In this document: positions 13-56,390 of the stretch, piece by piece
How the letters are laid out: each line of letters begins with the position of its first letter
Position numbering within the stretch: position 1 is the first letter of the stretch
DNA from: a virus
Lineage: Duplodnaviria; Heunggongvirae; Uroviricota; Caudoviricetes
Reading direction: 5' to 3' (one strand)
IMG/VR virus record: IMGVR_UViG_3300027896_000022
Location: 17,954 to 81,953 of that record
DNA length: 64,000 nucleotides
Program-made: the position numbers and the translations under genes
Notes under the pieces: generated by a model
What the model saw: only the letters and a program-made list of their open reading frames with translations
The model's database searches: none
Told to the model about the DNA's origin: nothing

Positions 13-3000
13 ATGCGGGATAACAATGCTTTAGGCATTAAAGTTGTAGTTGAAATTGATCCTCAAACTTTATCTTCTAAAGCAAGAGGAACTAAGGAAA
101 GTTTTTTTAAAGTCCATGTTACAGATGATTCTTGGGATCCGGCAAATATTAAAAGAACAACTGAATTAATGGTTAAAGGCACTAATTTGCCTAATAATGA
201 AATCAATGTGGCTGCCAATGCAATTCATGACGTTTTAAAAGATAAACCGGAGGTTATAGCTAACTACATAGCAGGCACGCCAAAAGAAAATATAGAAACT
301 GCAAATCCTCCTGGGGCTGTTCTTGAAGAACCTATTGCAACCACTCCTGAAGAGTCAGCAGCATCTTTTGAGGCCTTTATGCATGACAATATTCCATTTA
401 AAAATTCAACTGAGACAGCATTATTGAATAAAGAAATGGAACCGGTTCATATGGCGGCAACAATCAAGGAAACAACTCCAATAATTCGTGAGGCGATTAC
501 AACTAAAAGAGCTATGCCGGCAGAAGAACCTAGAATCAGTGAAGAAACTATTTCATCAGCAATTCCAGTAAAAACAAAAACACCTGTTACTAATTGGAAA
601 AATTTTTCAGTTCAACCCGGAGGAGGAGAAGAAATAAATGCAGGAGCAATGGCACATACAGACGATCCTGTTGTTTTACAATCTTTTACTAGAAAAAATC
701 TTTATGATATTGCCAAAGGAGCTTCTAAAAAAGGTGCTGAAGTAGGTGCGGGATGGAAAACATTCTTAAATAATATAAATAGCAAATTAAAGACTCCAAT
801 TACTGATAAAAATGAATTAAATGATTTAAGATGGTTATATAAAAGAGGTGCCAATTCTTCTTCGCGTCTTGAACTTACTAGTGAAAAAAATTTAATTCCT
901 GGAGCTCCAGAGAATAAAGGCAAAGGAGATGCGGATATTGAAAAATTTAACAAAGATAATAATCTTCCTGCTGATGCTGTCCAAATTATTGGAATTAATA
1001 AACAGCGAACATATGGACCTGACCCTAAATATACAGATAGTAGGAATAAATTTGATGAAGATGTAAAAACATTATCTAAGGTAGGTAAAGATAAATTTTT
1101 ACCAGTAGGGCAGCTTGCTAAAGGTTCTACGCAAGTTATATTTGCCAAATTTTCTCCTGAATATGTAAAAATATTTGATAAAAATCCTGAAAAATATACT
1201 CCAACTGGAGCAAAAATAGTTACTCCTGAAGATAAATTTCTTCAAGTCTTAAAAGTAGGAGCTTTAAATTTGCCCAAAGACATGAACACTGGTGATTTTA
1301 TTAAAAGGTCGTCCTTGATTTTTACCAGAGGGCAACAATATAACGGAATAGATAATAATTCTAAATTTACTTTAAATATTTTAAAATCTCCTACAGTAGG
1401 TGAGGAAGGAAATGTCAATTCAGATAATTTTGAAAATCCAAAAGACCCCAAAGTTCAAGATGCCATTAATGGCTTGACTGAAATGAGCCGAATAGACGGC
1501 AAAATTATTTTAGGAGAAGATTTGTTTGATAAAATTAGAAATGACACCAATTATGATCCTGCCAAATATAAGACCGGTTTAAAAATCACTCTTAATGGTC
1601 AGGGAAACCTAATTGGAAATGAAAATGATTTATATCAAATGATTCATAAAGGAAGTGCCATTAAAGCTGATCCAGCCATTAGAGCTTATATAAAATCTGT
1701 TTACGGCTTTGATCTTCCCAAAGGTGAAGCTGCCAGCTTTGATACAAACGCCAAAGTTGGCCCAAAAGAAGGAAAATTTGAAACTCCTCTTTCTAGTATT
1801 TTTACTCAAGCTGTTTCTCCCAGTGAGGAAGGCCGTGTTACTCCTGATTTTGAAAGAAAGTTGCAAAGTTCAGATGCAGGAGCTACAAATGATATTCTTA
1901 ATATTAATCAAAAACGTTTACAGGTTTTTAAGCAATTGAATGATGATATTGCCGCTACCACCAATAAAAAAGAATTAGAAGATGTCTTAAACAAATATTC
2001 GGATAAATACAATTTAGACAAAGCATCCTTGTTTTACGGCGATCTTGGCGAATCTTTTAATTTGGGAGCTGCCAAAATAAATCTTTCTCATAATCTGGAA
2101 AGAGTTTTAAAGAATATTTTCAATGAAAGTGTTATTAATGACGTTTTACCTGGAAGTGGAAGAGCAACCTTGTCTTTTTCCTTGCCTTTAAAATTGGATG
2201 GACCAAATAATCCAGCCAGAGTTGTAAACAATGAAGAAATTGTCTTAGGAAAGGAATTCATGAAAGCCCATAATATAAAGGAAGGAGATGATGTGATGGT
2301 CTTAAGAAATCCCTCAATAGACATGAATAATATTCTTGTTCTTAAGGCCAGAGATGGTTCAACTTTAGGACATACTAGTTTAGGAACAGAACATACAATA
2401 GTCAGCCCTTTTAATGAAAGAATCATTCTTGGTGGAGATCAAGATGGTGATGATGTTCTTATTACTAAAGTAGGGGAAGGTGGAATTCCAGAAAGTTATG
2501 TCAATGCTGTTAAGACAAGAGGATCTAAAGCAATTCCTTTTTCAGAAGTCACCCCTCGGCCATCTACACCTACAACCATAGCTAATATAACAGATGTTAT
2601 TCATAATTATTTGGTAGGAGATAATCAAACTAGCCATATTTCCATGGTTAATAGGATGATGAATTCTTTACAAGACAATGGATTGACTGTAAAAGTATAT
2701 CCTTCATCTGGAAAAAATAGCCGTTATGAATTAGTAGCCAATGGAAAAGTTGTTGAATCAGGCATAACTTCTGCCAGCAAAGCTGGTTTTGAGGCTACCC
2801 CGCAATTAGATTATAATGTCAGACAATTAAGAACCCAGGCTTTACAAGAAGCGGTAGACTCTAAAAAGTCTAATGATATTGTGGCTCGTTCTAATAATAA
2901 TGATCCTCTTTGGATGCTTAAGCAGGTCTTTAAAAGTAGTGATGGAAAAGAGTTAGATGATTATCAGGCTGTTGCATTACGCAAAGCTTTACAGAATTAT

Positions 3001-4110
3001 CAGGATGCTTATCAAAGCAAATCTTTTGTCGCCAATGCCAGAAATGTTGATGAAATTTTCTCAAAAACAGTCAAGGGCAAAACAGTCGGTCTTGATCCGG
3101 CAATAGCCTTGATAACTAAAATAAAAAAAGCAGGTGCTTCAATAACCCCTTTCCAGGAAAAACTTTTAGCTTTAGCTGATGAAAAAGGCAAAGGTTTTAA
3201 GACCGTTCAAGCTGATATTGTTAAAGCCGATAAAGCTGGAGCAACTGCAGTAAGAGAAAAATTCAAGCAAGAACCAAGTAAAGCCTTAAATACCATTAGA
3301 GGAATAGCTATAAAAGCTAGGCAAGATTATAATTCAACTAAAAATTATGCAAAAAAGAAAGAAGCTGCACAAAGAGTTTCGGATTATTTTGATGCTAATA
3401 GAAAAAAATTTAATAAAACTGATTTAACACAAATTGCACGATGGAATTCAATTTCTGATGAGGCAAATATCGCTCATGGACCTCAGTATAGAACCCCAGT
3501 ATATATCCGCAGATCCAATACTTTAACAAATGCTGACCCGGAAGTTGCCAAAACATATTATGAAGCCTCAGAAAAGGCTATTCCCCCTGCTGAAAAATAT
3601 AGCAATCTAGCTAAACAGACTGCAAAAACAACAACAAAACCGGTAGAAGAGCCTTTAACGACCATGTCTGGAATTCAATTAAAAAAAGAAACCACCCCTG
3701 CAGGTGATTATTGGTTAGAACAGAATGTGGCAAAGTCTGGCGGTAAATGGACGCCAGTAGTAAAAGCTGGCCATACGGTAGAGCATTTAATGCTAAAAGG
3801 CGGTGGCGGTTATGCTGGAAAGGTAAGAATCGATGGTGTTGAATATACTTATCCTGAAGCTGAAGCCAAATTTCTCAATCCTGTTGCCAAATATAATAAT
3901 TTAGCTAAAACCGTGAAGACGACTATGCCAAAATATACAATTGGTGCTACCTTTGATTATGAGGGAAAAAAATGGGAAATAAAGGATTTCCCAGGGCTTA
4001 AACTTGTCACTGTTGCTCAAGTTGATAATCCAAATATAACTCAAGATTTAAGTCGTTCCGCACTTTTATCTGGCGATATTGGAACTAATTTAAAGAATCC
4101 TACAGTTTAA
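13..4110 (+). CDS. Giant protein of at least 1365 aa. The frame is open to the window start, so the N-terminus may lie upstream. It carries a beta-prime-like catalytic-loop motif, so it is a candidate phage-encoded or virion two-barrel RNA polymerase.
   Basis: Long uninterrupted ORF. The segment VLRNPS...HTIV...GGDQDGDD at nt ~2290-2460 resembles bacterial beta-prime LLNRAPTLH...HPLV...NADFDGDQ, including a DxDGD loop. Confidence in the ORF is high; confidence in the product is low. Confidence 0.4.
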   Translation: MRDNNALGIKVVVEIDPQTLSSKARGTKESFFKVHVTDDSWDPANIKRTTELMVKGTNLPNNEINVAANAIHDVLKDKPEVIANYIAGTPKENIETANPPGAVLEEPIATTPEESAASFEAFMHDNIPFKNSTETALLNKEMEPVHMAATIKETTPIIREAITTKRAMPAEEPRISEETISSAIPVKTKTPVTNWKNFSVQPGGGEEINAGAMAHTDDPVVLQSFTRKNLYDIAKGASKKGAEVGAGWKTFLNNINSKLKTPITDKNELNDLRWLYKRGANSSSRLELTSEKNLIPGAPENKGKGDADIEKFNKDNNLPADAVQIIGINKQRTYGPDPKYTDSRNKFDEDVKTLSKVGKDKFLPVGQLAKGSTQVIFAKFSPEYVKIFDKNPEKYTPTGAKIVTPEDKFLQVLKVGALNLPKDMNTGDFIKRSSLIFTRGQQYNGIDNNSKFTLNILKSPTVGEEGNVNSDNFENPKDPKVQDAINGLTEMSRIDGKIILGEDLFDKIRNDTNYDPAKYKTGLKITLNGQGNLIGNENDLYQMIHKGSAIKADPAIRAYIKSVYGFDLPKGEAASFDTNAKVGPKEGKFETPLSSIFTQAVSPSEEGRVTPDFERKLQSSDAGATNDILNINQKRLQVFKQLNDDIAATTNKKELEDVLNKYSDKYNLDKASLFYGDLGESFNLGAAKINLSHNLERVLKNIFNESVINDVLPGSGRATLSFSLPLKLDGPNNPARVVNNEEIVLGKEFMKAHNIKEGDDVMVLRNPSIDMNNILVLKARDGSTLGHTSLGTEHTIVSPFNERIILGGDQDGDDVLITKVGEGGIPESYVNAVKTRGSKAIPFSEVTPRPSTPTTIANITDVIHNYLVGDNQTSHISMVNRMMNSLQDNGLTVKVYPSSGKNSRYELVANGKVVESGITSASKAGFEATPQLDYNVRQLRTQALQEAVDSKKSNDIVARSNNNDPLWMLKQVFKSSDGKELDDYQAVALRKALQNYQDAYQSKSFVANARNVDEIFSKTVKGKTVGLDPAIALITKIKKAGASITPFQEKLLALADEKGKGFKTVQADIVKADKAGATAVREKFKQEPSKALNTIRGIAIKARQDYNSTKNYAKKKEAAQRVSDYFDANRKKFNKTDLTQIARWNSISDEANIAHGPQYRTPVYIRRSNTLTNADPEVAKTYYEASEKAIPPAEKYSNLAKQTAKTTTKPVEEPLTTMSGIQLKKETTPAGDYWLEQNVAKSGGKWTPVVKAGHTVEHLMLKGGGGYAGKVRIDGVEYTYPEAEAKFLNPVAKYNNLAKTVKTTMPKYTIGATFDYEGKKWEIKDFPGLKLVTVAQVDNPNITQDLSRSALLSGDIGTNLKNPTV

Positions 4111-30384: not shown

Positions 30385-31566
30385 ATGGAAAATAATATGG
30401 AAAACGATCATTATGAAGGAAATAACATTCAGGGCTGGATGCAGCCGGTTGAGTTGGAGTTTCTCTATCAGGAGGCTAAGAAGGCCAATTCTGTCTTGGA
30501 AATCGGTTCCTGGAAGGGCAGAAGCACCCATGCGATACTTTCAGGGTGCAAAGGAATGGTCACCGCTGTGGACCATTTTAAGGGTTCAGCGCAATTAGGC
30601 GATGCCACGAATCAAATGGGCAAAGTGGAAGATGTTTATAAGCAGTTCATGGAAAATGTCGGGCATTTCAGCAATCTGAGGGTTATTAAGGCTACTTCAA
30701 GGGAAGCCAGAGTCCTTTTGAAAGATGAAAAGTTCGACATGATCTTCATTGATGGCGAACATAGTTATGAAGCGGTAAAGGAAGACATTGGCTTATGGCA
30801 GGGCAGGGCTAAAAAGATCCTTTGTGGCCATGATTATTGCCCCCCTTGGCCGCCAGTAATGCAGGCTGTTGATGAATCTATCGCCAAAGACGGGGTGGCT
30901 GGAAGTATTTGGTATAAATATGTCCAAGATGATTCTACAATTGAGCAATTTATTGATTTTATTAAAGAAAAAGAGAATTTTAGCTTTATTAAACGCGGGG
31001 ATGGAGAGGAATTCTGCATGTCCGGGATGGTAGGGCAGAATTGTGATGGACATAATTATAGCCCAATATTAGGGAAAGAATTGAAAAGAGCCTATGAATA
31101 CTTTGAATCCAGAGAGGATTGCTTTGTTCCTTTATTTCAAGATCAGAATTATTTTAATGCTCTTTTGCATCGAGTCGGCAAGAATAATGCCAAAGTGAAG
31201 GAATTTTATCAGGCGATTCGGGAAGACGGGCGTAAAAAGTTCTTTGTTGGCCCAGAAAGGCTGAAAATAGTGGCTAAGATATTAAAGGCTAAGCATATAA
31301 TTATTCCGGAAAAGAATGCTTTTGAGGAATATGGCGAGATTTCTGCCAAATTGAAGAAAGAAATTGGCAAAGACAAGGATGTCATAGTTTTGTTCAGCGC
31401 TGGAATGCCGGCCAAGGTTTTAATTGCGGAATGCCTAGAGAAAGACAATGGTATTACTTGCCTGGATTTGGGTTCTGCCTTTGATTCCTTGATCAAAGAA
31501 TCAAGAACTAATCAGATGCCAAGGGCCCAGATACTGGAATTGTATGCCGATTGGATTATGGAATAA
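30385..31566 (+). CDS. TylF/CmcI-family SAM-dependent methyltransferase. It is a paralog of the central domain of the 988-aa protein and has an unknown C-terminal domain.
   Basis: LEIGSWKGRSTHAILSGCKG...IFIDGEHSYEAV...CGHDY is nearly colinear with residues of ORF 24727-27693. Confidence 0.55.
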   Translation: MENNMENDHYEGNNIQGWMQPVELEFLYQEAKKANSVLEIGSWKGRSTHAILSGCKGMVTAVDHFKGSAQLGDATNQMGKVEDVYKQFMENVGHFSNLRVIKATSREARVLLKDEKFDMIFIDGEHSYEAVKEDIGLWQGRAKKILCGHDYCPPWPPVMQAVDESIAKDGVAGSIWYKYVQDDSTIEQFIDFIKEKENFSFIKRGDGEEFCMSGMVGQNCDGHNYSPILGKELKRAYEYFESREDCFVPLFQDQNYFNALLHRVGKNNAKVKEFYQAIREDGRKKFFVGPERLKIVAKILKAKHIIIPEKNAFEEYGEISAKLKKEIGKDKDVIVLFSAGMPAKVLIAECLEKDNGITCLDLGSAFDSLIKESRTNQMPRAQILELYADWIME

Positions 31567-31606: not shown

Positions 31607-32407
31607 ATGAATGAAACAAATAAGAAAATAGCAAGCTTGATTGTTTGGGTGTTGGTGGCAATAGTTATTTTGATTCTTTTTTTCAGTTCGATTGCTATTG
31701 TCAATGCCGGTGAAAGGGGTGTCGTAATGAATTGGGGCGCTGTTTCGCAGGATGTGAAAGGCGAAGGATTCCATTGGCTTATTCCCATTAAGCAGACGAT
31801 GAAAATTGTGGATGTGAAGAATATCAAGATTGAAACTAAAACCCAGTCTTATTCCAAAGACATCCAGACGGTTGATGTTTCGCTGGCTTTAAATTACAAC
31901 GTCAAGCCGGGTTTGGCCGCCAAGATTTATCAGGAAGTGGGGACCAGCTATCAGGCGACCATTATCGATCCGGCCATCCAGGAAAGCGTCAAAGCGGCGG
32001 TAGCTCTATTTACGGCCCAGGAATTAATTGAACAGCGTCCAAAAGTCAAGGATGCCATTACTTTGGAATTAACTAACAGGCTCTCCAATTACTTTGTGGT
32101 CAGCCAGTTTTCCATTACGGATTTCTCTTTTTCTAATGAATATGAAAAGGCCGTGGAAGCCAAGCAGGTAGCCCAGCAAAAGGCCTTGGAGCAGGAGAAT
32201 ATCACTAAGCAGGTGGAAGAGCAGGCCAAGCAGACAGTGGCTTCGGCGACCGCCCAGGCTAAAGCCATCCAAATACAGGCAGAAGCAGTCACCCAGCAAG
32301 GCGGGGCTGATTATGTAAAACTTCAAGCGATTCAAAAATGGTCAGGTATTCTGCCAACTACGATGGTTCCTGGAGGTGCTTTACCATTTATAAATTTAAC
32401 CTATTAA
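31607..32407 (+). CDS. SPFH/Band-7 (prohibitin/HflC-like) membrane protein
   Basis: N-terminal TM helix, then MNWGAVSQDVKGEGFHWLIPI...VDVKNIKIET and a Gln/Ala-rich coiled coil. Confidence 0.6.
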   Translation: MNETNKKIASLIVWVLVAIVILILFFSSIAIVNAGERGVVMNWGAVSQDVKGEGFHWLIPIKQTMKIVDVKNIKIETKTQSYSKDIQTVDVSLALNYNVKPGLAAKIYQEVGTSYQATIIDPAIQESVKAAVALFTAQELIEQRPKVKDAITLELTNRLSNYFVVSQFSITDFSFSNEYEKAVEAKQVAQQKALEQENITKQVEEQAKQTVASATAQAKAIQIQAEAVTQQGGADYVKLQAIQKWSGILPTTMVPGGALPFINLTY

Positions 32408-32408
32408 A

Positions 32409-32870
32409 ATGAGTATCCCTTGGTTAAAAAAATATAATTTTAAGAAAGGTAAAAATCATCGTGGATGGAAAGGTGGAAGGATAAAAAATCATAATGGTTA
32501 TATTTGGGTTTATCTTCCATCTCATCCTTTAGCAAGGAAAAGGTCAAGAAAAGGATATGTCTTAGAACACAGATTGGTAATGTGCAAAAAACTTGGTAGA
32601 ATTATTAAAAGCAAAGAGATTGTTCATCATTTAAATGGTGTAAGAGATGACAATCGCCCAGAAAACCTTGTTTTAACATCTACTTCTAAACATATTGCTG
32701 GACATAATGCAAAAAGAGTTTGGAAAAAAGAAAGTAAATTAAAGCAAACTATAAAAGCGTCTTTATTTGAAAGAGATGCTAATGGCAGATTTCTTAAATA
32801 TCCAAATGGCGTTTTGCCCTCTACAATGGTTCCGGGAAGCTCAGTGCCGTTTCTTGATTTGAAGTATTAA
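32409..32870 (+). CDS. HNH endonuclease. Its last ~19 codons duplicate the C-terminus of the prohibitin gene.
   Basis: HNH motif VHHLNGVRDDNRPENL...HIAGH. The C-terminus VLPSTMVPGSSVPFLDLKY matches the prohibitin tail ILPTTMVPGGALPFINLTY. Confidence 0.65.
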   Translation: MSIPWLKKYNFKKGKNHRGWKGGRIKNHNGYIWVYLPSHPLARKRSRKGYVLEHRLVMCKKLGRIIKSKEIVHHLNGVRDDNRPENLVLTSTSKHIAGHNAKRVWKKESKLKQTIKASLFERDANGRFLKYPNGVLPSTMVPGSSVPFLDLKY

Positions 32871-32967
32871 CAAAAAAATAAACTGGTGCCAGTTGTCAGG
32901 CGCGGGGATTCTTAGTCGCTTCTTCTGCGTTAAAGGATTGGGTAAATGGCCGTAGGACCAGCCGGTG

Positions 32968-33055
32968 GGGCAGATAGCCTCGTAGAGAGCGAGAGCAGAC
33001 TGTAAATCTGTCATCCATTAGGGTCTTGTTGGTGCGACTCCAGCTCTGCCCACCA
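32968..33055 (+). tRNA. Class-II (long variable arm) tRNA with encoded CCA and anticodon GTA (Tyr), folded by hand
   Basis: Acceptor gggcaga/tctgccc is 7 bp perfect, and ACCA is encoded. The anticodon arm is gcaga-ctGTAaa-tctgt with U33 and A37. The T-arm is gttgg-tgcgact-ccagc. The D-arm is irregular. Confidence 0.45.
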
Positions 33056-33066
33056 CGTTTAAATCT

Positions 33067-33294
33067 ATGCCACACAATTGCTGTGCCATTTGCAAAAGGC
33101 CTTTGTTAGGGCTTTCGGTCAGCGTCGGCCGGGATCAATTTCATCCTGACTGCTTTTATAAAACCCCTAAAGGCCAAGAAGTGGAAAAAGGCTTTCAAGA
33201 GTTTAAAAAGAATTATAATAATAAAAAATATGAAGAAAAGATTGATAATTTGCTATCACGGAACAAGCCAGGAATGCGCCAGGGAAATTCTTAA
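33067..33294 (+). CDS. Small Cys-containing hypothetical protein. It overlaps the next ORF.
   Basis: 75-aa ORF with CCAIC...DC. Confidence 0.25.
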   Translation: MPHNCCAICKRPLLGLSVSVGRDQFHPDCFYKTPKGQEVEKGFQEFKKNYNNKKYEEKIDNLLSRNKPGMRQGNS

Positions 33295-33541
33295 GAAGGG
33301 TTTTAAGAAATACACTTATTTCGCCAAGCACTTAGAGGATGCCCTGGAATTCGGCGGCAATTTTGTTTTTGAAGCCGCATTCAAAGAAAGTGAAGTCGCC
33401 CCTCTTGGCTGGCAATTTAAAATTGAGACAAAAAAGTCTCAAAAGGAAATCGTGAGATTGAGGAAATACCCTGATTATATAGGGATTTTTGAGAACAAGA
33501 AATTGGGGAAAAGGGTGTTTGAAAGCAATCTTCCCAAGTGA
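33230..33541 (+). CDS. Hypothetical protein
   Basis: 103-aa ORF. It starts in an A-rich context. Confidence 0.35.
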   Translation: MKKRLIICYHGTSQECAREILKKGFKKYTYFAKHLEDALEFGGNFVFEAAFKESEVAPLGWQFKIETKKSQKEIVRLRKYPDYIGIFENKKLGKRVFESNLPK

Positions 33542-54124: not shown

Positions 54125-54352
54125 ATGCCTAATATTTATCCGTATTATAATGAGCCAACCCACGACCAGGGTAATGCCATTACATTAACGGCTCCAAATG
54201 CTGGGCGTACTTCCAAGACTGCGTCTGATGAGCAAAGGCTTATCGTCGATGCGGTTGACAAAATATTCTTACTCGAACCGAACAAGCATCCATTAGTTAC
54301 TCTTTTGACAAATGTCGGAAAAGTATACGATAAACAATTACTGTCGTATTAA
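54125..54352 (+). CDS. Major capsid protein exon 1. The ORF as called runs a few codons into the intron.
   Basis: It is followed by a group I intron. The capsid-like exon 2 continues at ~55380. Confidence 0.45.
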   Translation: MPNIYPYYNEPTHDQGNAITLTAPNAGRTSKTASDEQRLIVDAVDKIFLLEPNKHPLVTLLTNVGKVYDKQLLSY

Positions 54353-55385
54353 AATCGGGTTAATTCGGGGAAACTCTTTAGTAGACAATCCCGACCCAAG
54401 ATATTCAGGAATGAATATAAGGGCTAACGACTAATAGCATACCGCCAGAACGGCGATGAAGCTAACAAGAAATCCCGAAGCCAGAGATGGCTAAGATATA
54501 GTCTGAACATCATAGTGATATGATGAAACATAGGATAAAGAGCCTATGGTGATAACATTATAGGGTAAAGCTTGGAAAGGATCTTCCATGTTGAAAGCTT
54601 CAACTGGAAATCCGGAGTTTAAGTGGTTTTTTAGGCTTATATTAGCCGAGAATAAGTAATTCTTTGGACCACTATAAAATTAGCTATTTGCTGGAACACC
54701 CTAAAGGCTTGCGTACCATAGAAGAACATGATACAATGTAATCTATGGTAAAAATCTCAAGCATACAAAAAGTGGGCAATCAGCAGGTAACATCTACAAC
54801 TCTCGCATGGCTTGCGGGAATTTGGGATGGTGAAGGTACTTTTGGTATTTACGGATATCCTAATGGAAAAAAAAGAAGGATGTATTATTGTGGAAGAATG
54901 ACATTATCTAATACTTCTCCTTTAATGATTGATGAAATAATTAGGATTATGGAGTTGTTGGGAGTAAAAGTTGATGTTTGGAAAGAAAAAAAATCACGTA
55001 AAGAGAATCATAAAAAGGCCGTTCATCTTACATTAAATCGAATTGATTCAGTTAAAATGGTATGTGAATTATTAATTCCATACTTAGTTGCAAAAAAAGA
55101 TAGGGCAGAATTATTGTTAAAATTTCTTAATTCTCGTTTAACTTATAAAAGAAAAGTAAAACGAGATCCTGCCACAGGTCATATTCTTGGGGTTATTGAA
55201 CAAGGATATCCTAAAATAGATATTGCAATGTGGAAAAAAATGAGAGACTTGAATCAAGTAGGTATTGTTGTAGATGGTTCCTCAGAGACTACACGCTAAT
55301 CCTCTGGTAACAGAGTGATGATATAGTCCGAACTCACGCGAAATCGTGAGAGTTGTACAGAAATGATACAACCTCTTAATTGAGT
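54340..55385 (+). mobile_element. Group I self-splicing intron carrying a LAGLIDADG homing endonuclease ORF. The boundaries are approximate.
   Basis: Group I core elements are present: an R-like gggctaacgactaatagca at ~54420 and an S-like gatgatatagtccgaac at ~55318. The ~400-nt 5' part is structured and non-coding. It interrupts a capsid-like reading frame. Confidence 0.6.
54745..55299 (+). CDS. LAGLIDADG homing endonuclease, encoded within the intron
   Basis: Contains LAWLAGIWDGEGTFGIY, a single LAGLIDADG motif, and is a 184-aa basic protein. Confidence 0.7.
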   Translation: MVKISSIQKVGNQQVTSTTLAWLAGIWDGEGTFGIYGYPNGKKRRMYYCGRMTLSNTSPLMIDEIIRIMELLGVKVDVWKEKKSRKENHKKAVHLTLNRIDSVKMVCELLIPYLVAKKDRAELLLKFLNSRLTYKRKVKRDPATGHILGVIEQGYPKIDIAMWKKMRDLNQVGIVVDGSSETTR

Positions 55386-56390
55386 AACAAAAGCGAAGAC
55401 TATTACGGTGGAAGATACGCGCGCGTTGCAGCTGATTATGCAATTGGTGCAGCCTCATTTACTGTAACTGGAGCAGGTTCCAGTTCAGGTTACATATTTT
55501 CAATTGGTGATGTCGTTAAAAATGCCCGCACTGGTGAAAATATGTTGGTTACAGCTGTTGCTGCCAATACGATTACTATTACTAAAGCATTTGGTACTAC
55601 AGCTGATTCAGCTGGTTTAGCTGGCGATGGAATTTTCATCGTTGGTAATGCCAATGAAGAAAACTCGGGTGCTCGCAGTGTGAACTCCACACAGAGCACA
55701 CCGCAGACCAACTACACTCAGATATTTAAAACAACCATTGCTTTGTCTAACACTGAAAAGGAAGCCAATCTCTATGGAGGTAAAGACTTGCCTTATCAGA
55801 GAGCTAAGAAAGGCACTGAACATGCTTTGGATATTGAACGTGCATTTTGGTTTGGTCAGAAGAATTATGCCGCTGGCTTCAATGGCCCACAAGGCCATCC
55901 GAGACGCCAGACTGGTGGTGTTTTGGAATTCATTGAAGGGGGAAATTCCTATGTTCAGAATCAGGGTGGTGCTTTGACTGCTCCGGATTTGAACACTTTC
56001 TTGCGTGAAGGTTTCACTTATGGCAACTCTGAAAAGATGTTGTTCTGCGGTGGTTACGTCTTGCAAGCTATTAACGAAATTGCTCGTGGACAAATTTTGA
56101 TGAAACCGGTTGAGTCTACCTATGGGATGAAAATTTCTCAATGGGTGACCGCTTTCGGGACTGTCAATATTGTCCATAATCCGCTTTTTGTTGAAGAGTA
56201 CGCCGGTTATGCGTTCTTGCTGGATATGGAAAGCTTCAGATATCGCTTTATGAATAATCGCGATACTCAGTTGCAGACCAATATTCAAGCTCCGGATGCT
56301 GACGGCGAGGTGGATCAATACATCACTGAGTGCGGTCTTGAGAGAAAACAGTCTCCGAGACATGCTTTACTTAAGGGTGTCTTATCCTGA
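55380..56390 (+). CDS. Major capsid protein exon 2. The true exon start is a few nt downstream of 55380.
   Basis: 336-aa ORF following the intron. It is Gly/Thr/Asn-rich like capsid proteins, and its position follows the scaffold. Confidence 0.5.
   Translation: MSNKSEDYYGGRYARVAADYAIGAASFTVTGAGSSSGYIFSIGDVVKNARTGENMLVTAVAANTITITKAFGTTADSAGLAGDGIFIVGNANEENSGARSVNSTQSTPQTNYTQIFKTTIALSNTEKEANLYGGKDLPYQRAKKGTEHALDIERAFWFGQKNYAAGFNGPQGHPRRQTGGVLEFIEGGNSYVQNQGGALTAPDLNTFLREGFTYGNSEKMLFCGGYVLQAINEIARGQILMKPVESTYGMKISQWVTAFGTVNIVHNPLFVEEYAGYAFLLDMESFRYRFMNNRDTQLQTNIQAPDADGEVDQYITECGLERKQSPRHALLKGVLS

What the first reader, a model, noticed from the sequence alone, without database searches (positions are those of the whole stretch)
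32340..32870. HNH endonuclease gene inserted at the 3' end of the prohibitin gene with duplication of the target C-terminus
The SPFH/prohibitin ORF ends ...ILPTTMVPGGALPFINLTY*. One nucleotide later the HNH ORF starts, and it ends ...VLPSTMVPGSSVPFLDLKY*. The nucleotide sequences ctacgatggttcctgga and ctacaatggttccggga are also similar. This looks like the footprint of a homing endonuclease that invaded the 3' end of the host gene and carried or duplicated the displaced coding segment.
Basis: seen in the sequence. Interest (0 to 1): 0.6.

Follow-up and report, generated by a model that had tools for sequence, protein, structure and literature searches.

The report
Homing endonuclease carrying spare prohibitin tail
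A selfish HNH nuclease gene has inserted into the last 20 codons of a phage prohibitin-like gene, bringing its own replacement copy of the gene's end and leaving the original end stranded behind it. This layout is well known in fungal mitochondria, but I found no report of it for a phage.

Summary
The SPFH/Band_7 gene (31607-32407) ends SGILPTTMVPGGALPFINLTY*. One base later an HNH_3 gene (32409-32870) starts, and it ends NGVLPSTMVPGSSVPFLDLKY*. The similarity is not chance: BLASTP gives E=3e-8, and an SPFH family HMM aligns its last 20 positions to HNH residues 133-152 (full-sequence score 19.1 bits; best of 2000 shuffles 5.9).

The motif is the conserved C-terminus of this SPFH family. Relatives without an HNH end with it. 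No other HNH relative carries it; all end near window residue 131.

The closest HNH relatives sit at the same place in three other contigs. Each shows a full SPFH gene, then the HNH, then an orphan SPFH tail starting at or near the N-G of K-W-N-G.

Third-position GC shows what moved. The last 34 SPFH codons (0.21) match the HNH (0.18). The orphan tail (0.48) matches the SPFH body (0.56). So the cassette brought a replacement 3' end. The native tail was displaced and, because the HNH lacks a stop codon here, it is translated as an HNH extension.

The closest known analogue is the endonuclease "mORF gene hybrid" of fungal mitochondria. This is a new member of a known kind, of moderate interest. 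Nuclease activity is untested.

The parts
31607..32407 (+). SPFH/Band_7 (prohibitin-family) gene, 266 aa, complete ORF. It is the target gene, now a hybrid.
   Evidence: Pfam PF01145 E=3.1e-35. 867 homologues at E<=1e-40. 88% identical to the SPFH protein of IMG/VR contig L001.
32303..32407 (+). Imported replacement 3' end of the SPFH gene (about codons 233-266, GADYVKLQAIQKWSGILPTTMVPGGALPFINLTY*). The left boundary is approximate.
   Evidence: GC3 is 7/34 = 0.21, against 115/206 = 0.56 in codons 27-232 (Fisher p=1.5e-4). It is indistinguishable from the HNH (23/131, p=0.80). Amino-acid divergence from L001 rises from 9/180 to 17/60 after residue 206 (permutation p<0.0005).
32342..32407 (+). 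Tail 1: SGILPTTMVPGGALPFINLTY plus stop. This is the C-terminus now used by the SPFH protein.
   Evidence: Nearest family tail is P0203 (17/21). It is closer to the cassette-side tail of L007 (14/21 aa, 39/63 nt) than tail 2 is (9/21, 32/63).
32409..32804 (+). HNH endonuclease proper (codons 1-132). The ATG lies 1 nt after the SPFH stop (TAAaATG). There is no separate promoter spacer, unlike in the relatives.
   Evidence: Pfam HNH_3 E=1.5e-11. All invariant residues of the clade are kept. The AlphaFold core has pLDDT 82-93 and the best PDB fold hit is I-HmuI 1u3e, a weak match. Relatives end at the position of residue ~131.
32568..32693 (+). HNH_3 catalytic motif (residues 54-95: ...EHRLVM...VHHLNGVRDDNRPENL...).
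   Evidence: Pfam alignment covers residues 54-95. Invariant E53 H54 H73 H74 N76 N82 N86.
32802..32804 (+). Right junction of the cassette. Codon CCA (Pro132) stands where the relatives in L003, L004 and L005 have the HNH stop codon.
   Evidence: Codon-level comparison of junctions, with raw sequences.
32805..32870 (+). Tail 2: the orphan, probably native, SPFH C-terminus NGVLPSTMVPGSSVPFLDLKY plus stop. Here it is read in frame as an extension of the HNH ORF.
   Evidence: BLASTP E=3e-8 and an SPFH HMM match at positions 245-264 of 265. GC3 is 10/21 = 0.48, different from the HNH (p=0.004) and not from the SPFH body (p=0.50). pLDDT is below 50 in the model. No other HNH protein has it.

Best explanation
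Region 32303-32870 is the footprint of a free-standing HNH (HNH_3, I-HmuI-like) homing-endonuclease cassette. It has invaded the 3' end of a phage SPFH/prohibitin gene between the Trp codon and the following Asn-Gly codons of the conserved K-W-N-G-x-L-P motif.

The cassette consists of a foreign, AT-rich copy of the last ~34 SPFH codons followed by the HNH gene. The foreign copy now completes the SPFH reading frame, so the host gene stays intact. The resident last 21 codons were pushed downstream. In this phage the HNH has no stop codon at the junction (CCA where relatives have TAA). The orphan tail is therefore translated as a disordered 21-residue C-terminal appendage of the nuclease.

Inferred mechanism:
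1. The enzyme cuts or nicks HNH-less SPFH alleles at or near TGG|AAY.
2. The left end of the break invades the homologous SPFH sequence of a cassette-bearing donor and copies the donor tail and the HNH (co-conversion).
3. The right end is rejoined at the break.
4. The cassette's own upstream tail differs at the target site (KWSG here, a different tail subfamily in L003-L005) and so would be immune.

Shown: homology of the orphan tail, its absence from other HNH proteins, the recurrent insertion site, presence/absence polymorphism, and the compositional boundaries. Inferred: cleavage, its position, immunity, and the repair pathway.
For: 1. The motif is the family's C-terminus. Most of the 119 SPFH homologues end KW[NDS]G.[LV]P..[MF][IV]P[GN]..[VL]PF[IL][ND]L... 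The HNH-less relatives L001 and L002 do too.

2. Tail 2 is homologous to that C-terminus (E=3e-8; HMM full-sequence score 19.1 bits against at most 5.9 in 2000 shuffles).

3. HNH relatives lack it. The closest ones (P0002-P0006, 51-60% identity) stop at ...G.F.. which matches window residue ~131. None of the 119 relatives from the 5.8-billion-protein search has the motif. None of the best 150 in the 1.84-billion-representative search aligns past residue 131, and none of the 141 new ones among them has the motif.

4. The arrangement recurs in unrelated contexts:
- L003: Band_7 gene, 44-nt spacer, HNH P0002, then NGRFPVQMIPNSAVPFINLNR* overlapping the HNH stop by 1 nt.
- L004: Band_7, HNH P0005, then NGQLPQQMIPGSTVPFLNLTR*.
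- L005: Band_7, HNH P0004, then ILPTQMIPNGTLPFVNLTK*.
- L007: an SPFH end (KWSG...) and spacer upstream of HNH P0006.
In L003-L005 the upstream gene carries a different natural tail subfamily (KW.EAW..GG..VP...FLFN). That subfamily occurs without an HNH or an orphan in other genomes. A local duplication therefore cannot explain the orphan.

5. The association is specific. Among 240 loci of more distant HNH_3 relatives, 0 have an SPFH tail nearby. Among 79 IMG/VR SPFH loci, 0 have an HNH downstream or a second tail.

6. Composition. GC3 is 0.56 in the SPFH body, 0.21 in SPFH codons 233-266, 0.18 in the HNH and 0.48 in tail 2, with Fisher tests as given under parts.

7. Tail 1 and tail 2 are only 12/21 aa and 43/66 nt identical, which is the family average. 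Each has closer relatives elsewhere.

8. The spacer upstream of the HNH is homologous in L003, L004, L005 and L007 (TTGACAAGCrTTATCTAyT). The region upstream of the HNH therefore travels with it.

9. The model shows a folded HNH core and a tail with pLDDT below 50.

10. The same architecture in fungal mitochondria (inserted C-terminal, endonuclease mORF, native C*-terminal; 63.5% nt identity between the two atp6 ends) is attributed to endonuclease-driven mobility (PMC3630166, read).
Against: - No HNH-less allele of this same phage was found. The claim that tail 2 is the native one therefore rests on composition alone.
- The tail of the nearest relative, L001, is equally distant from both tails (37/63 and 39/63 nt).
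- Nuclease activity, cleavage position and immunity are untested.
- The protein core is only ~131 aa with no recognisable separate DNA-binding domain. Only weak NUMOD3 hits appear, in two relatives. How it would recognise a long site is therefore unclear.
- I-HmuI-type enzymes nick rather than make double-strand breaks (general knowledge).
- Only five or six loci of this clade are known, and most lie on contigs of 0.5-3.7 kb.
- Both window tails end in Tyr, which none of 184 family proteins does. This shared oddity is not explained by independent origins.
- The test for chimeric SPFH genes in L003-L005 was inconclusive.
Confidence: 0.8

Rival explanations
1. In-place tandem duplication. About 60-100 bp of the SPFH 3' end was duplicated locally, for example as a target-site duplication or by replication slippage. 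The HNH gene then landed between the copies, and the copies diverged.
For: Both window tails end in Tyr-stop (TAT TAA), a terminal residue seen in none of 184 family proteins. The two copies have the same length and register.
Against: - The copies are only 65% identical in DNA and 12/21 in protein, no closer than random family members. Each has nearer relatives elsewhere.
- Their GC3 differs (0.19 against 0.48) and matches the HNH and the gene body respectively.
- In L003-L005 the upstream tail is of another subfamily than the orphan, which a local duplication cannot produce.
Confidence: 0.07
2. Remnant of a second gene. The phage ancestor had two tandem SPFH paralogues, as in HflK/HflC pairs. 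The HNH gene replaced most of the second one, leaving only its last 21 codons.
For: SPFH genes do occur in pairs in bacteria (general knowledge). The orphan keeps an intact frame and its own stop.
Against: - None of 79 IMG/VR SPFH loci, nor L001, L002 or L327-L329, shows a second SPFH gene or a second tail.
- The orphan starts at the same codon in three loci (window, L003, L004) and a few bases away in L005, although their flanking genes are unrelated. This fits a site-specific event, not independent deletions.
Confidence: 0.04
3. Functional fusion. The SPFH C-terminal peptide on the HNH protein is selected, for example to dock the nuclease onto SPFH assemblies or the membrane. The arrangement would then be a domesticated gene rather than a scar.
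For: The 21 codons are intact and in frame with the HNH. The sequence is identical in three assemblies. The SPFH motif is strongly conserved and so is probably an interaction or assembly element.
Against: - Only the window has the fusion. In L003, L004 and L005 a stop codon lies at the junction and the orphan is out of frame.
- No other HNH among the relatives examined carries the motif: the 119, and the best 150 listed from the 1.84-billion-representative search.
- The tail is predicted to be disordered.
- Intactness is equally expected for a recent insertion.
Confidence: 0.05
4. Intron or intein. The HNH lies in a self-splicing element, and splicing joins the SPFH body to tail 2.
For: The same phage has a group I intron with a LAGLIDADG ORF in its capsid gene.
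Against: - The SPFH ORF is already complete, with a family-typical tail and a stop codon before the HNH.
- A permissive Rfam scan of 32300-33300 found no intron.
- The stop codon and the separate ATG exclude an intein.
- Relatives carry a promoter-like spacer before the HNH.
Confidence: 0.02

Closest known systems
Endonuclease 'mORF' gene hybrids of fungal mitochondria: Allomyces macrogynus atp6, Glomus sp. atp6/atp9/cox2/nad3, Rhizopus atp9, Mortierella cox2 (PMC3630166 and the Paquin et al. 1994 work it cites)
   Same: The order of parts is identical: host gene core, an inserted foreign C-terminal segment in phase, an endonuclease ORF, then the displaced native C*-terminal. The two C-terminal copies are strongly diverged (63.5% nt in Glomus atp6; 65% here). 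In some hybrids the mORF lacks a stop and is in phase with neighbouring segments. The endonuclease is held responsible for mobility.
   Different: Those elements live in mitochondrial genomes, encode LAGLIDADG or GIY-YIG enzymes and target respiratory-chain genes. Here the genome is a tailed phage, the enzyme is an HNH_3 nuclease, the target is an SPFH/prohibitin gene, and the duplicated segment is only ~21-34 codons.
Free-standing homing endonucleases of T4-like phages (seg and mob genes; 'intronless homing' with co-conversion of flanking markers; PMC2988022)
   Same: A phage-borne, intron-less nuclease gene sits next to a conserved gene. It shows presence/absence polymorphism. Flanking donor sequence is co-inherited. 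Some are promoter-less cassettes expressed from the upstream gene, as the window copy appears to be.
   Different: T4 seg and mob genes sit between genes and leave no duplicated piece of the target. Here the insertion point lies inside the coding sequence and a replacement end is carried. The T4 Mob proteins have an additional C-terminal region, which is not seen here.
I-HmuI and related HNH_3 endonucleases (PDB 1u3e)
   Same: Same Pfam family (HNH_3), and the best structural match of the predicted model.
   Different: I-HmuI is encoded in a group I intron and has extra DNA-binding modules. The match is weak (TM 0.38, 14% identity), and the window protein core is only ~131 aa.
HEG insertions that split phage genes (for example mobE in Aeh1 nrdA; from my own knowledge, not checked here)
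   Same: A free-standing HEG inserted inside a conserved phage coding sequence, with host function retained.
   Different: There the gene is left in two pieces that reassemble as protein. Here the gene is kept whole by a carried replacement end.

Membership tests
Free-standing homing endonuclease gene (intronless homing) | Encodes a nuclease of a recognised HEG family with catalytic residues intact | tested here: met
   Pfam HNH_3 E=1.5e-11. All clade-invariant residues are present, including E53 H54 H73 H74 N76 N82 N86. The best fold hit is I-HmuI.
Free-standing homing endonuclease gene (intronless homing) | Present or absent at one fixed site among otherwise homologous genes | tested here: met
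   Absent after the SPFH gene in L001, L002, L327-L329 and 79 IMG/VR loci. Present at the same site in the window, L003, L004 and L005.
Free-standing homing endonuclease gene (intronless homing) | Found at the same site in unrelated genomic backgrounds (evidence of movement) | tested here: met
   Flanking genes differ between the window, L003 and L005. The orphan tails differ in sequence (NGVLPSTMVPGSSVPFLDLKY, NGRFPVQMIPNSAVPFINLNR, NGQLPQQMIPGSTVPFLNLTR, ILPTQMIPNGTLPFVNLTK).
Free-standing homing endonuclease gene (intronless homing) | Co-conversion tract of donor sequence flanking the HEG | tested here: met
   SPFH codons 233-266 share the HNH's GC3 (0.21 and 0.18) and differ from the gene body (0.56, p=1.5e-4). 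A homologous spacer travels with the HNH in four loci. This evidence is compositional only.
Free-standing homing endonuclease gene (intronless homing) | The enzyme cleaves the HEG-less allele near the insertion site, and the HEG-bearing allele is resistant | not testable with these tools
   Needs a cleavage assay. KWSG alleles also occur without an HNH, so sequence alone gives no verdict on immunity.
mORF-type gene hybrid (Allomyces atp6 type) | Inserted foreign C-terminal segment in phase with the host gene, followed by an endonuclease ORF, followed by the displaced native C-terminal segment | tested here: met
   The architecture is as described in PMC3630166.
mORF-type gene hybrid (Allomyces atp6 type) | The native copy is closer to the orthologue of close relatives than the inserted copy is | tested here: inconclusive
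   The L001 tail matches tail 1 at 37/63 nt and tail 2 at 39/63 nt. No closer relative was found. Only GC3 supports native status for tail 2.
mORF-type gene hybrid (Allomyces atp6 type) | Mitochondrial element encoding a LAGLIDADG or GIY-YIG enzyme | tested here: not met
   The genome is a tailed phage (terminase, portal, tail fibre) and the enzyme is HNH_3. It works like these elements but is not one of them in the strict sense.
Intron- or intein-encoded homing endonuclease | Embedded in a self-splicing RNA, or in frame within a protein-splicing domain | tested here: not met
   No Rfam intron in 32300-33300 at E<=10. A stop codon and a separate ATG lie between SPFH and HNH. The SPFH ORF is complete.
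SPFH/Band_7 (prohibitin family), the target gene | Band_7 domain plus the family's conserved C-terminal KW.G.LP..M.PG..PF.NL motif | tested here: met
   PF01145 E=3.1e-35 over residues 31-207. C-terminus compared with 119 homologues.
I-HmuI-like HNH_3 endonucleases | HNH catalytic domain joined to separate DNA-binding modules (NUMOD, IENR or HTH) | tested here: inconclusive
   Only HNH_3 was found in the window protein. Weak NUMOD3 hits appear on relatives P0002 and P0005. The PDB sequence search found nothing and the fold match to 1u3e is weak.

The most novel reading that the evidence does not exclude
The orphan tail is not only a scar. It may be the cassette's portable right-hand homology arm. 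Flanked by SPFH sequence on both sides, the HNH cassette could home into any SPFH gene with this type of tail, whatever lies downstream. Repeated homing by this clade would then swap C-terminal tails between SPFH lineages. That would account for the observation that tail subtype (KWNG..QMIPG..PF.NL against KW.EAW..GG..VP..FLFN) does not track similarity of the gene body across phages and Patescibacteria-like hosts.
Probability: 0.25. Interest if true: 0.55.

Novelty: new member of a known kind. Interest (0 to 1): 0.42.

Why it matters
This locus is a clean, sequence-level example of how a free-standing homing endonuclease can sit inside a conserved gene without destroying it: it carries a spare copy of the piece it displaces. 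That solution is documented for LAGLIDADG and GIY-YIG elements in fungal mitochondria. Six searches of the held paper library turned up no phage example and no example involving HNH or SPFH genes.

It defines a small HNH_3 clade with a predictable target, the K-W-N-G coding site of SPFH genes, which could be tested directly for cleavage.

It is also a caution for annotation and phylogeny. The SPFH gene here is a hybrid of two lineages, and the '153-aa HNH protein' includes 21 residues of another gene.

It does not open a new mechanism or resolve an old question.

Tried and rejected
1. Distant HNH relatives. I scanned 240 loci of more distant HNH_3 relatives from metagenomes, IMG/VR and GTDB genomes for SPFH tails and found none. 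The association is confined to the P0001-P0006 clade.

2. SPFH loci in IMG/VR. I scanned 79 SPFH loci for a downstream HNH or a second tail and found none. L306 has an HNH upstream instead.

3. KWSG as an immunity mark. The hypothesis that the KWSG variant marks cassette-borne, cleavage-immune tails does not hold as a diagnostic. KWSG alleles occur without an HNH (L327-L329).

4. Chimerism in L003-L005. I tested whether their SPFH genes have a type-A body with a type-B tail. Bodies of genuine type-B genes are no closer to type B than to type A, so the test has no power.

5. Which window tail is nearer the closest relative. L001 matches tail 1 at 37/63 nt and tail 2 at 39/63 nt, which is uninformative.

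6. Empty-site allele or related downstream context in IMG/VR. A degenerate pattern found only distant SPFH genes. The exact tail-2 and tRNA-like patterns found nothing.

7. Structured RNA in 32300-33300. No Rfam intron was found; the only weak hit is a tRNA-like one.

8. Structure searches. The PDB sequence search with the HNH profile found nothing, and the fold search gave only a weak I-HmuI match.

9. Earlier misreading, corrected. I first read the L003 orphan as in frame with its HNH. Rechecking showed a 1-nt overlap with the stop codon, so it is out of frame.

10. Literature. Searches for a phage or prohibitin example of this architecture found none in the held library.
Full report
**What is in the sequence.** On the + strand, ORF 31607..32407 encodes a 266-aa protein with a Band_7/SPFH domain (PF01145, E=3.1e-35). 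It ends ...QKWSGILPTTMVPGGALPFINLTY, with stop TAA at 32405-32407. After a single base, ORF 32409..32870 encodes a 153-aa protein with an HNH_3 domain (PF13392, E=1.5e-11, residues 54-95). It ends ...RFLKYPNGVLPSTMVPGSSVPFLDLKY*. The window is a tailed-phage genome: large terminase, portal, tail fibre, helicases and primase all match PHROGs. The same SPFH-HNH DNA is identical in three independent assemblies.

**Is the resemblance real?** BLASTP of the two proteins gives one significant segment, HNH 133-153 against SPFH 246-266: 12/21 identical, 19/21 positive, E=3e-8. An HMM built from 119 SPFH homologues, with the window protein excluded, scores the HNH protein 19.1 bits in full (E=3.8e-8 for one target). 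It reports two stretches, one of which puts HNH residues 133-152 on HMM positions 245-264 of 265. Across 2000 shuffles of the tail the best score was 5.9 bits. None of the other 119 HNH homologues hits that part of the HMM.

**What the motif is.** Most of the 119 closest SPFH proteins in the 5.8-billion-protein collection end with KW[NDS]G.[LV]P..[MF][IV]P[GN]..[VL]PF[IL][ND]L.. followed by a stop. This includes the two IMG/VR relatives that have no HNH after the gene. L001 (88% identical protein) ends KWNGILPTQFVPGSAIPFLDLTTK*. L002 (58%) ends KWDGAVPITMVPGATVPFIELNK*.

**What the HNH normally looks like.** The closest HNH relatives (P0002-P0006, 51-60% identity, 125-137 aa) all stop at ...R[ND]..G.F.. 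This aligns with window residue ~131, so the window protein has about 22 extra residues. None of the 119 relatives from the first search has the motif. An exhaustive HMMER search of 1.84 billion representatives gave 39,587 hits. None of the best 150 aligns beyond query residue 131, and none of the 141 new proteins among them has the motif. An AlphaFold model has a confident core (pLDDT 82-93 over residues ~20-100) and a tail with pLDDT below 50. Its best PDB fold match is the HNH homing endonuclease I-HmuI, though weakly (probability 0.95, E=0.11, TM 0.38).

**The decisive comparison.** The closest HNH relatives lie at the same place in other contigs.
- L003: a Band_7 gene (2097..2936) is followed by a 44-nt spacer and HNH P0002 (2981..3394). 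Overlapping its stop by one base comes aac ggc aga ttt cca gtt caa atg ata cca aat tca gca gtt cct ttt att aac ttg aat aga taa, which reads NGRFPVQMIPNSAVPFINLNR*.
- L004: Band_7, HNH P0005, then NGQLPQQMIPGSTVPFLNLTR*.
- L005: Band_7, HNH P0004, then ILPTQMIPNGTLPFVNLTK*.
- L007: ends at the HNH stop, but shows an SPFH end (EKWSGTLPTQMIPNGALPFLNLNN*) and the spacer upstream of HNH P0006.

Lined up by codon, the orphan starts at the Asn codon of K-W-N-G in the window, L003 and L004, and a few bases later in L005. In those three relatives the HNH stop codon lies exactly at the junction. In the window that codon is CCA and the frame runs on.

In L003-L005 the complete upstream gene carries a different tail subfamily (KW.EAW..GG..VP..I.G..G.FLFN...). 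That subfamily is a natural one, found without an HNH and without an orphan in other genomes, including Patescibacteria-type contexts. An orphan of one subtype behind a gene of another subtype cannot arise by local duplication.

The association is specific. None of 240 loci of more distant HNH_3 relatives has an SPFH tail nearby. None of 79 IMG/VR SPFH loci has a downstream HNH or a second tail.

**Which tail is native in the window.** Third-position GC gives a clear pattern:

| Segment | GC3 | Comparison |
|---|---|---|
| SPFH codons 27-232 | 115/206 = 0.56 | reference body |
| SPFH codons 233-266 | 7/34 = 0.21 | vs body p=1.5e-4; vs HNH p=0.80 |
| HNH codons 1-131 | 23/131 = 0.18 | reference HNH |
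| Tail 2 | 10/21 = 0.48 | vs HNH p=0.004; vs body p=0.50 |

The imported block therefore runs from about 32303 to 32804, and 32805-32870 is resident sequence.

Three further results are consistent with this:
- Amino-acid divergence from L001 jumps from 9/180 to 17/60 after residue 206 (permutation p<0.0005).
- Tail 1 is closer to the cassette-side tail of L007 (14/21 aa, 39/63 nt) than tail 2 is (9/21, 32/63).
- The two window tails are no more alike (12/21) than either is to an average family member (11.7 and 11.1). Each has nearer relatives elsewhere (17/21 and 15/21).

The L001 tail is equidistant from both (37 and 39 of 63 nt), so sequence distance alone does not decide the question.

**How it most likely works.** Shown: a small HNH_3 clade is repeatedly found inserted at one codon boundary of SPFH genes. 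It carries SPFH 3' sequence and, in the four relatives L003, L004, L005 and L007 but not in the window, a homologous promoter-like spacer on its upstream side. The resident tail is left downstream.

Inferred, by analogy with intronless homing in T4-like phages (PMC2988022) and with mitochondrial mORF elements (PMC3630166):
1. The enzyme cuts or nicks HNH-less alleles near TGG|AAY.
2. The left end invades the homologous SPFH sequence of a donor and copies its tail and the HNH.
3. The right end is joined at the break, so the orphan begins at the cut.
4. The donor-derived tail differs at the target (KWSG or the other tail subtype) and would be immune.

In the window two secondary changes occurred. 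The spacer is missing, so the HNH start is 1 nt after the SPFH stop (TAAaATG) and is probably expressed by translational coupling. The HNH stop is also missing, so the orphan is translated.

**Rivals.**
- In-place duplication is disfavoured by composition, by divergence, and by the mixed-subtype loci.
- A decayed second paralogue is disfavoured by the absence of tandem SPFH genes anywhere and by the near-identical start codon of the orphans in unrelated contexts.
- A selected HNH-tail fusion is possible but is seen only here.
- An intron or intein is excluded by the complete SPFH ORF, the stop and ATG, and the lack of any intron signal.

**Comparison with what is known.** The architecture is that of the endonuclease 'mORF gene hybrids' of fungal mitochondria: inserted C-terminal in phase, endonuclease ORF, native C*-terminal downstream. 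Even the divergence between the two copies is similar (63.5% in Glomus atp6 against 65% here; PMC3630166).

It differs in three respects: the host is a phage, the nuclease family is HNH_3 rather than LAGLIDADG or GIY-YIG, and the target is an SPFH gene. Compared with the T4 seg and mob genes, it shares phage context and co-conversion. It differs in sitting inside a coding sequence with a carried replacement end.

Searches of the held library found no phage or prohibitin example. The library is incomplete, so this is not proof of absence.

**Unexplained.** Both window tails end in Tyr-stop, which none of 184 family proteins does. For tail 1 a possible cause is the deletion that removed the spacer: L007 has ...cctacTATATAAggATG where the window has ...accTATTAAaATG. 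For tail 2 it could be a single change from the ...LDLKN* type. This is conjecture.

**Verdict.** This is a new member of a known kind, of moderate interest. Nuclease activity and target site remain to be tested.

Noticed in passing
window 32968-33055 (+): A tRNA-like sequence lies directly downstream of the orphan tail. It has a 7-bp acceptor stem (GGGCAGA/UCUGCCC) followed by an encoded ACCA, an anticodon loop CUGUAAA (GUA, Tyr) and a long variable arm. Rfam matches tRNA-Sec at only 23.5 bits, below threshold, and ARAGORN does not call it. MFE is -32.2 kcal/mol, z=-2.4. It has an atypical 4-nt connector before the D stem and the T loop UGCGACU. It could be a degenerate or unusual phage tRNA-Tyr.
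   Followed up: partly
window 54125-56390 (+): The SU10-type major capsid gene (PF17236, E=6e-52 on 55380-56390) appears to be split by a group I intron (RF00028, 54297-54525, 61.6 bits). A LAGLIDADG ORF (54745-55299, PF14528 E=5e-5) lies between the intron match and the downstream part of the gene. The phage therefore hosts at least two homing-endonuclease elements.
   Followed up: partly
L306 2138-2437 (IMGVR_UViG_3300036766_000149): An HNH_3-like ORF lies directly upstream of an SPFH gene (2501-3235). This is a different placement from the clade studied here.
   Followed up: no
SPFH family proteins P0121-P0305: The tail subtype (KWNG..QMIPG..PF.NL or KW.EAW..GG..VP..FLFN) does not track overall similarity of the protein body. 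Genuine type-B proteins are on average no closer to other type-B bodies than to type-A bodies. This may reflect exchange of C-terminal segments between lineages.
   Followed up: partly
L003 2937-2980, L004 648-711, L005 323-362, L007 113-150: The spacer between the SPFH stop and the HNH start is homologous in four loci and looks like a sigma-70 promoter (TTGACAAGCrTTATCTAyT ... TATAAT-like), ending a few bases before the ATG. The window lacks it entirely (TAAaATG).
   Followed up: partly
L006 (ENA ERZ27284499 k141_133405), whole 744 bp: This short contig carries the primer-like sequence GTTTCCCAGTCACGATA at both ends, so it is probably an amplification fragment. It holds HNH P0003. Downstream of it lies a possible orphan of the other tail subtype (KKIESGSSVLFNLNGN*), and a 10-nt repeat ggatcaagtg flanks the HNH.
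   Followed up: no
window 30385-31566 (+): The gene upstream of SPFH encodes a fusion of a Methyltransf_24 domain (E=2e-16) with a GT-D-like glycosyltransferase domain. Its GC content (~0.40-0.48) stands out from the AT-rich small ORFs before it.
   Followed up: no
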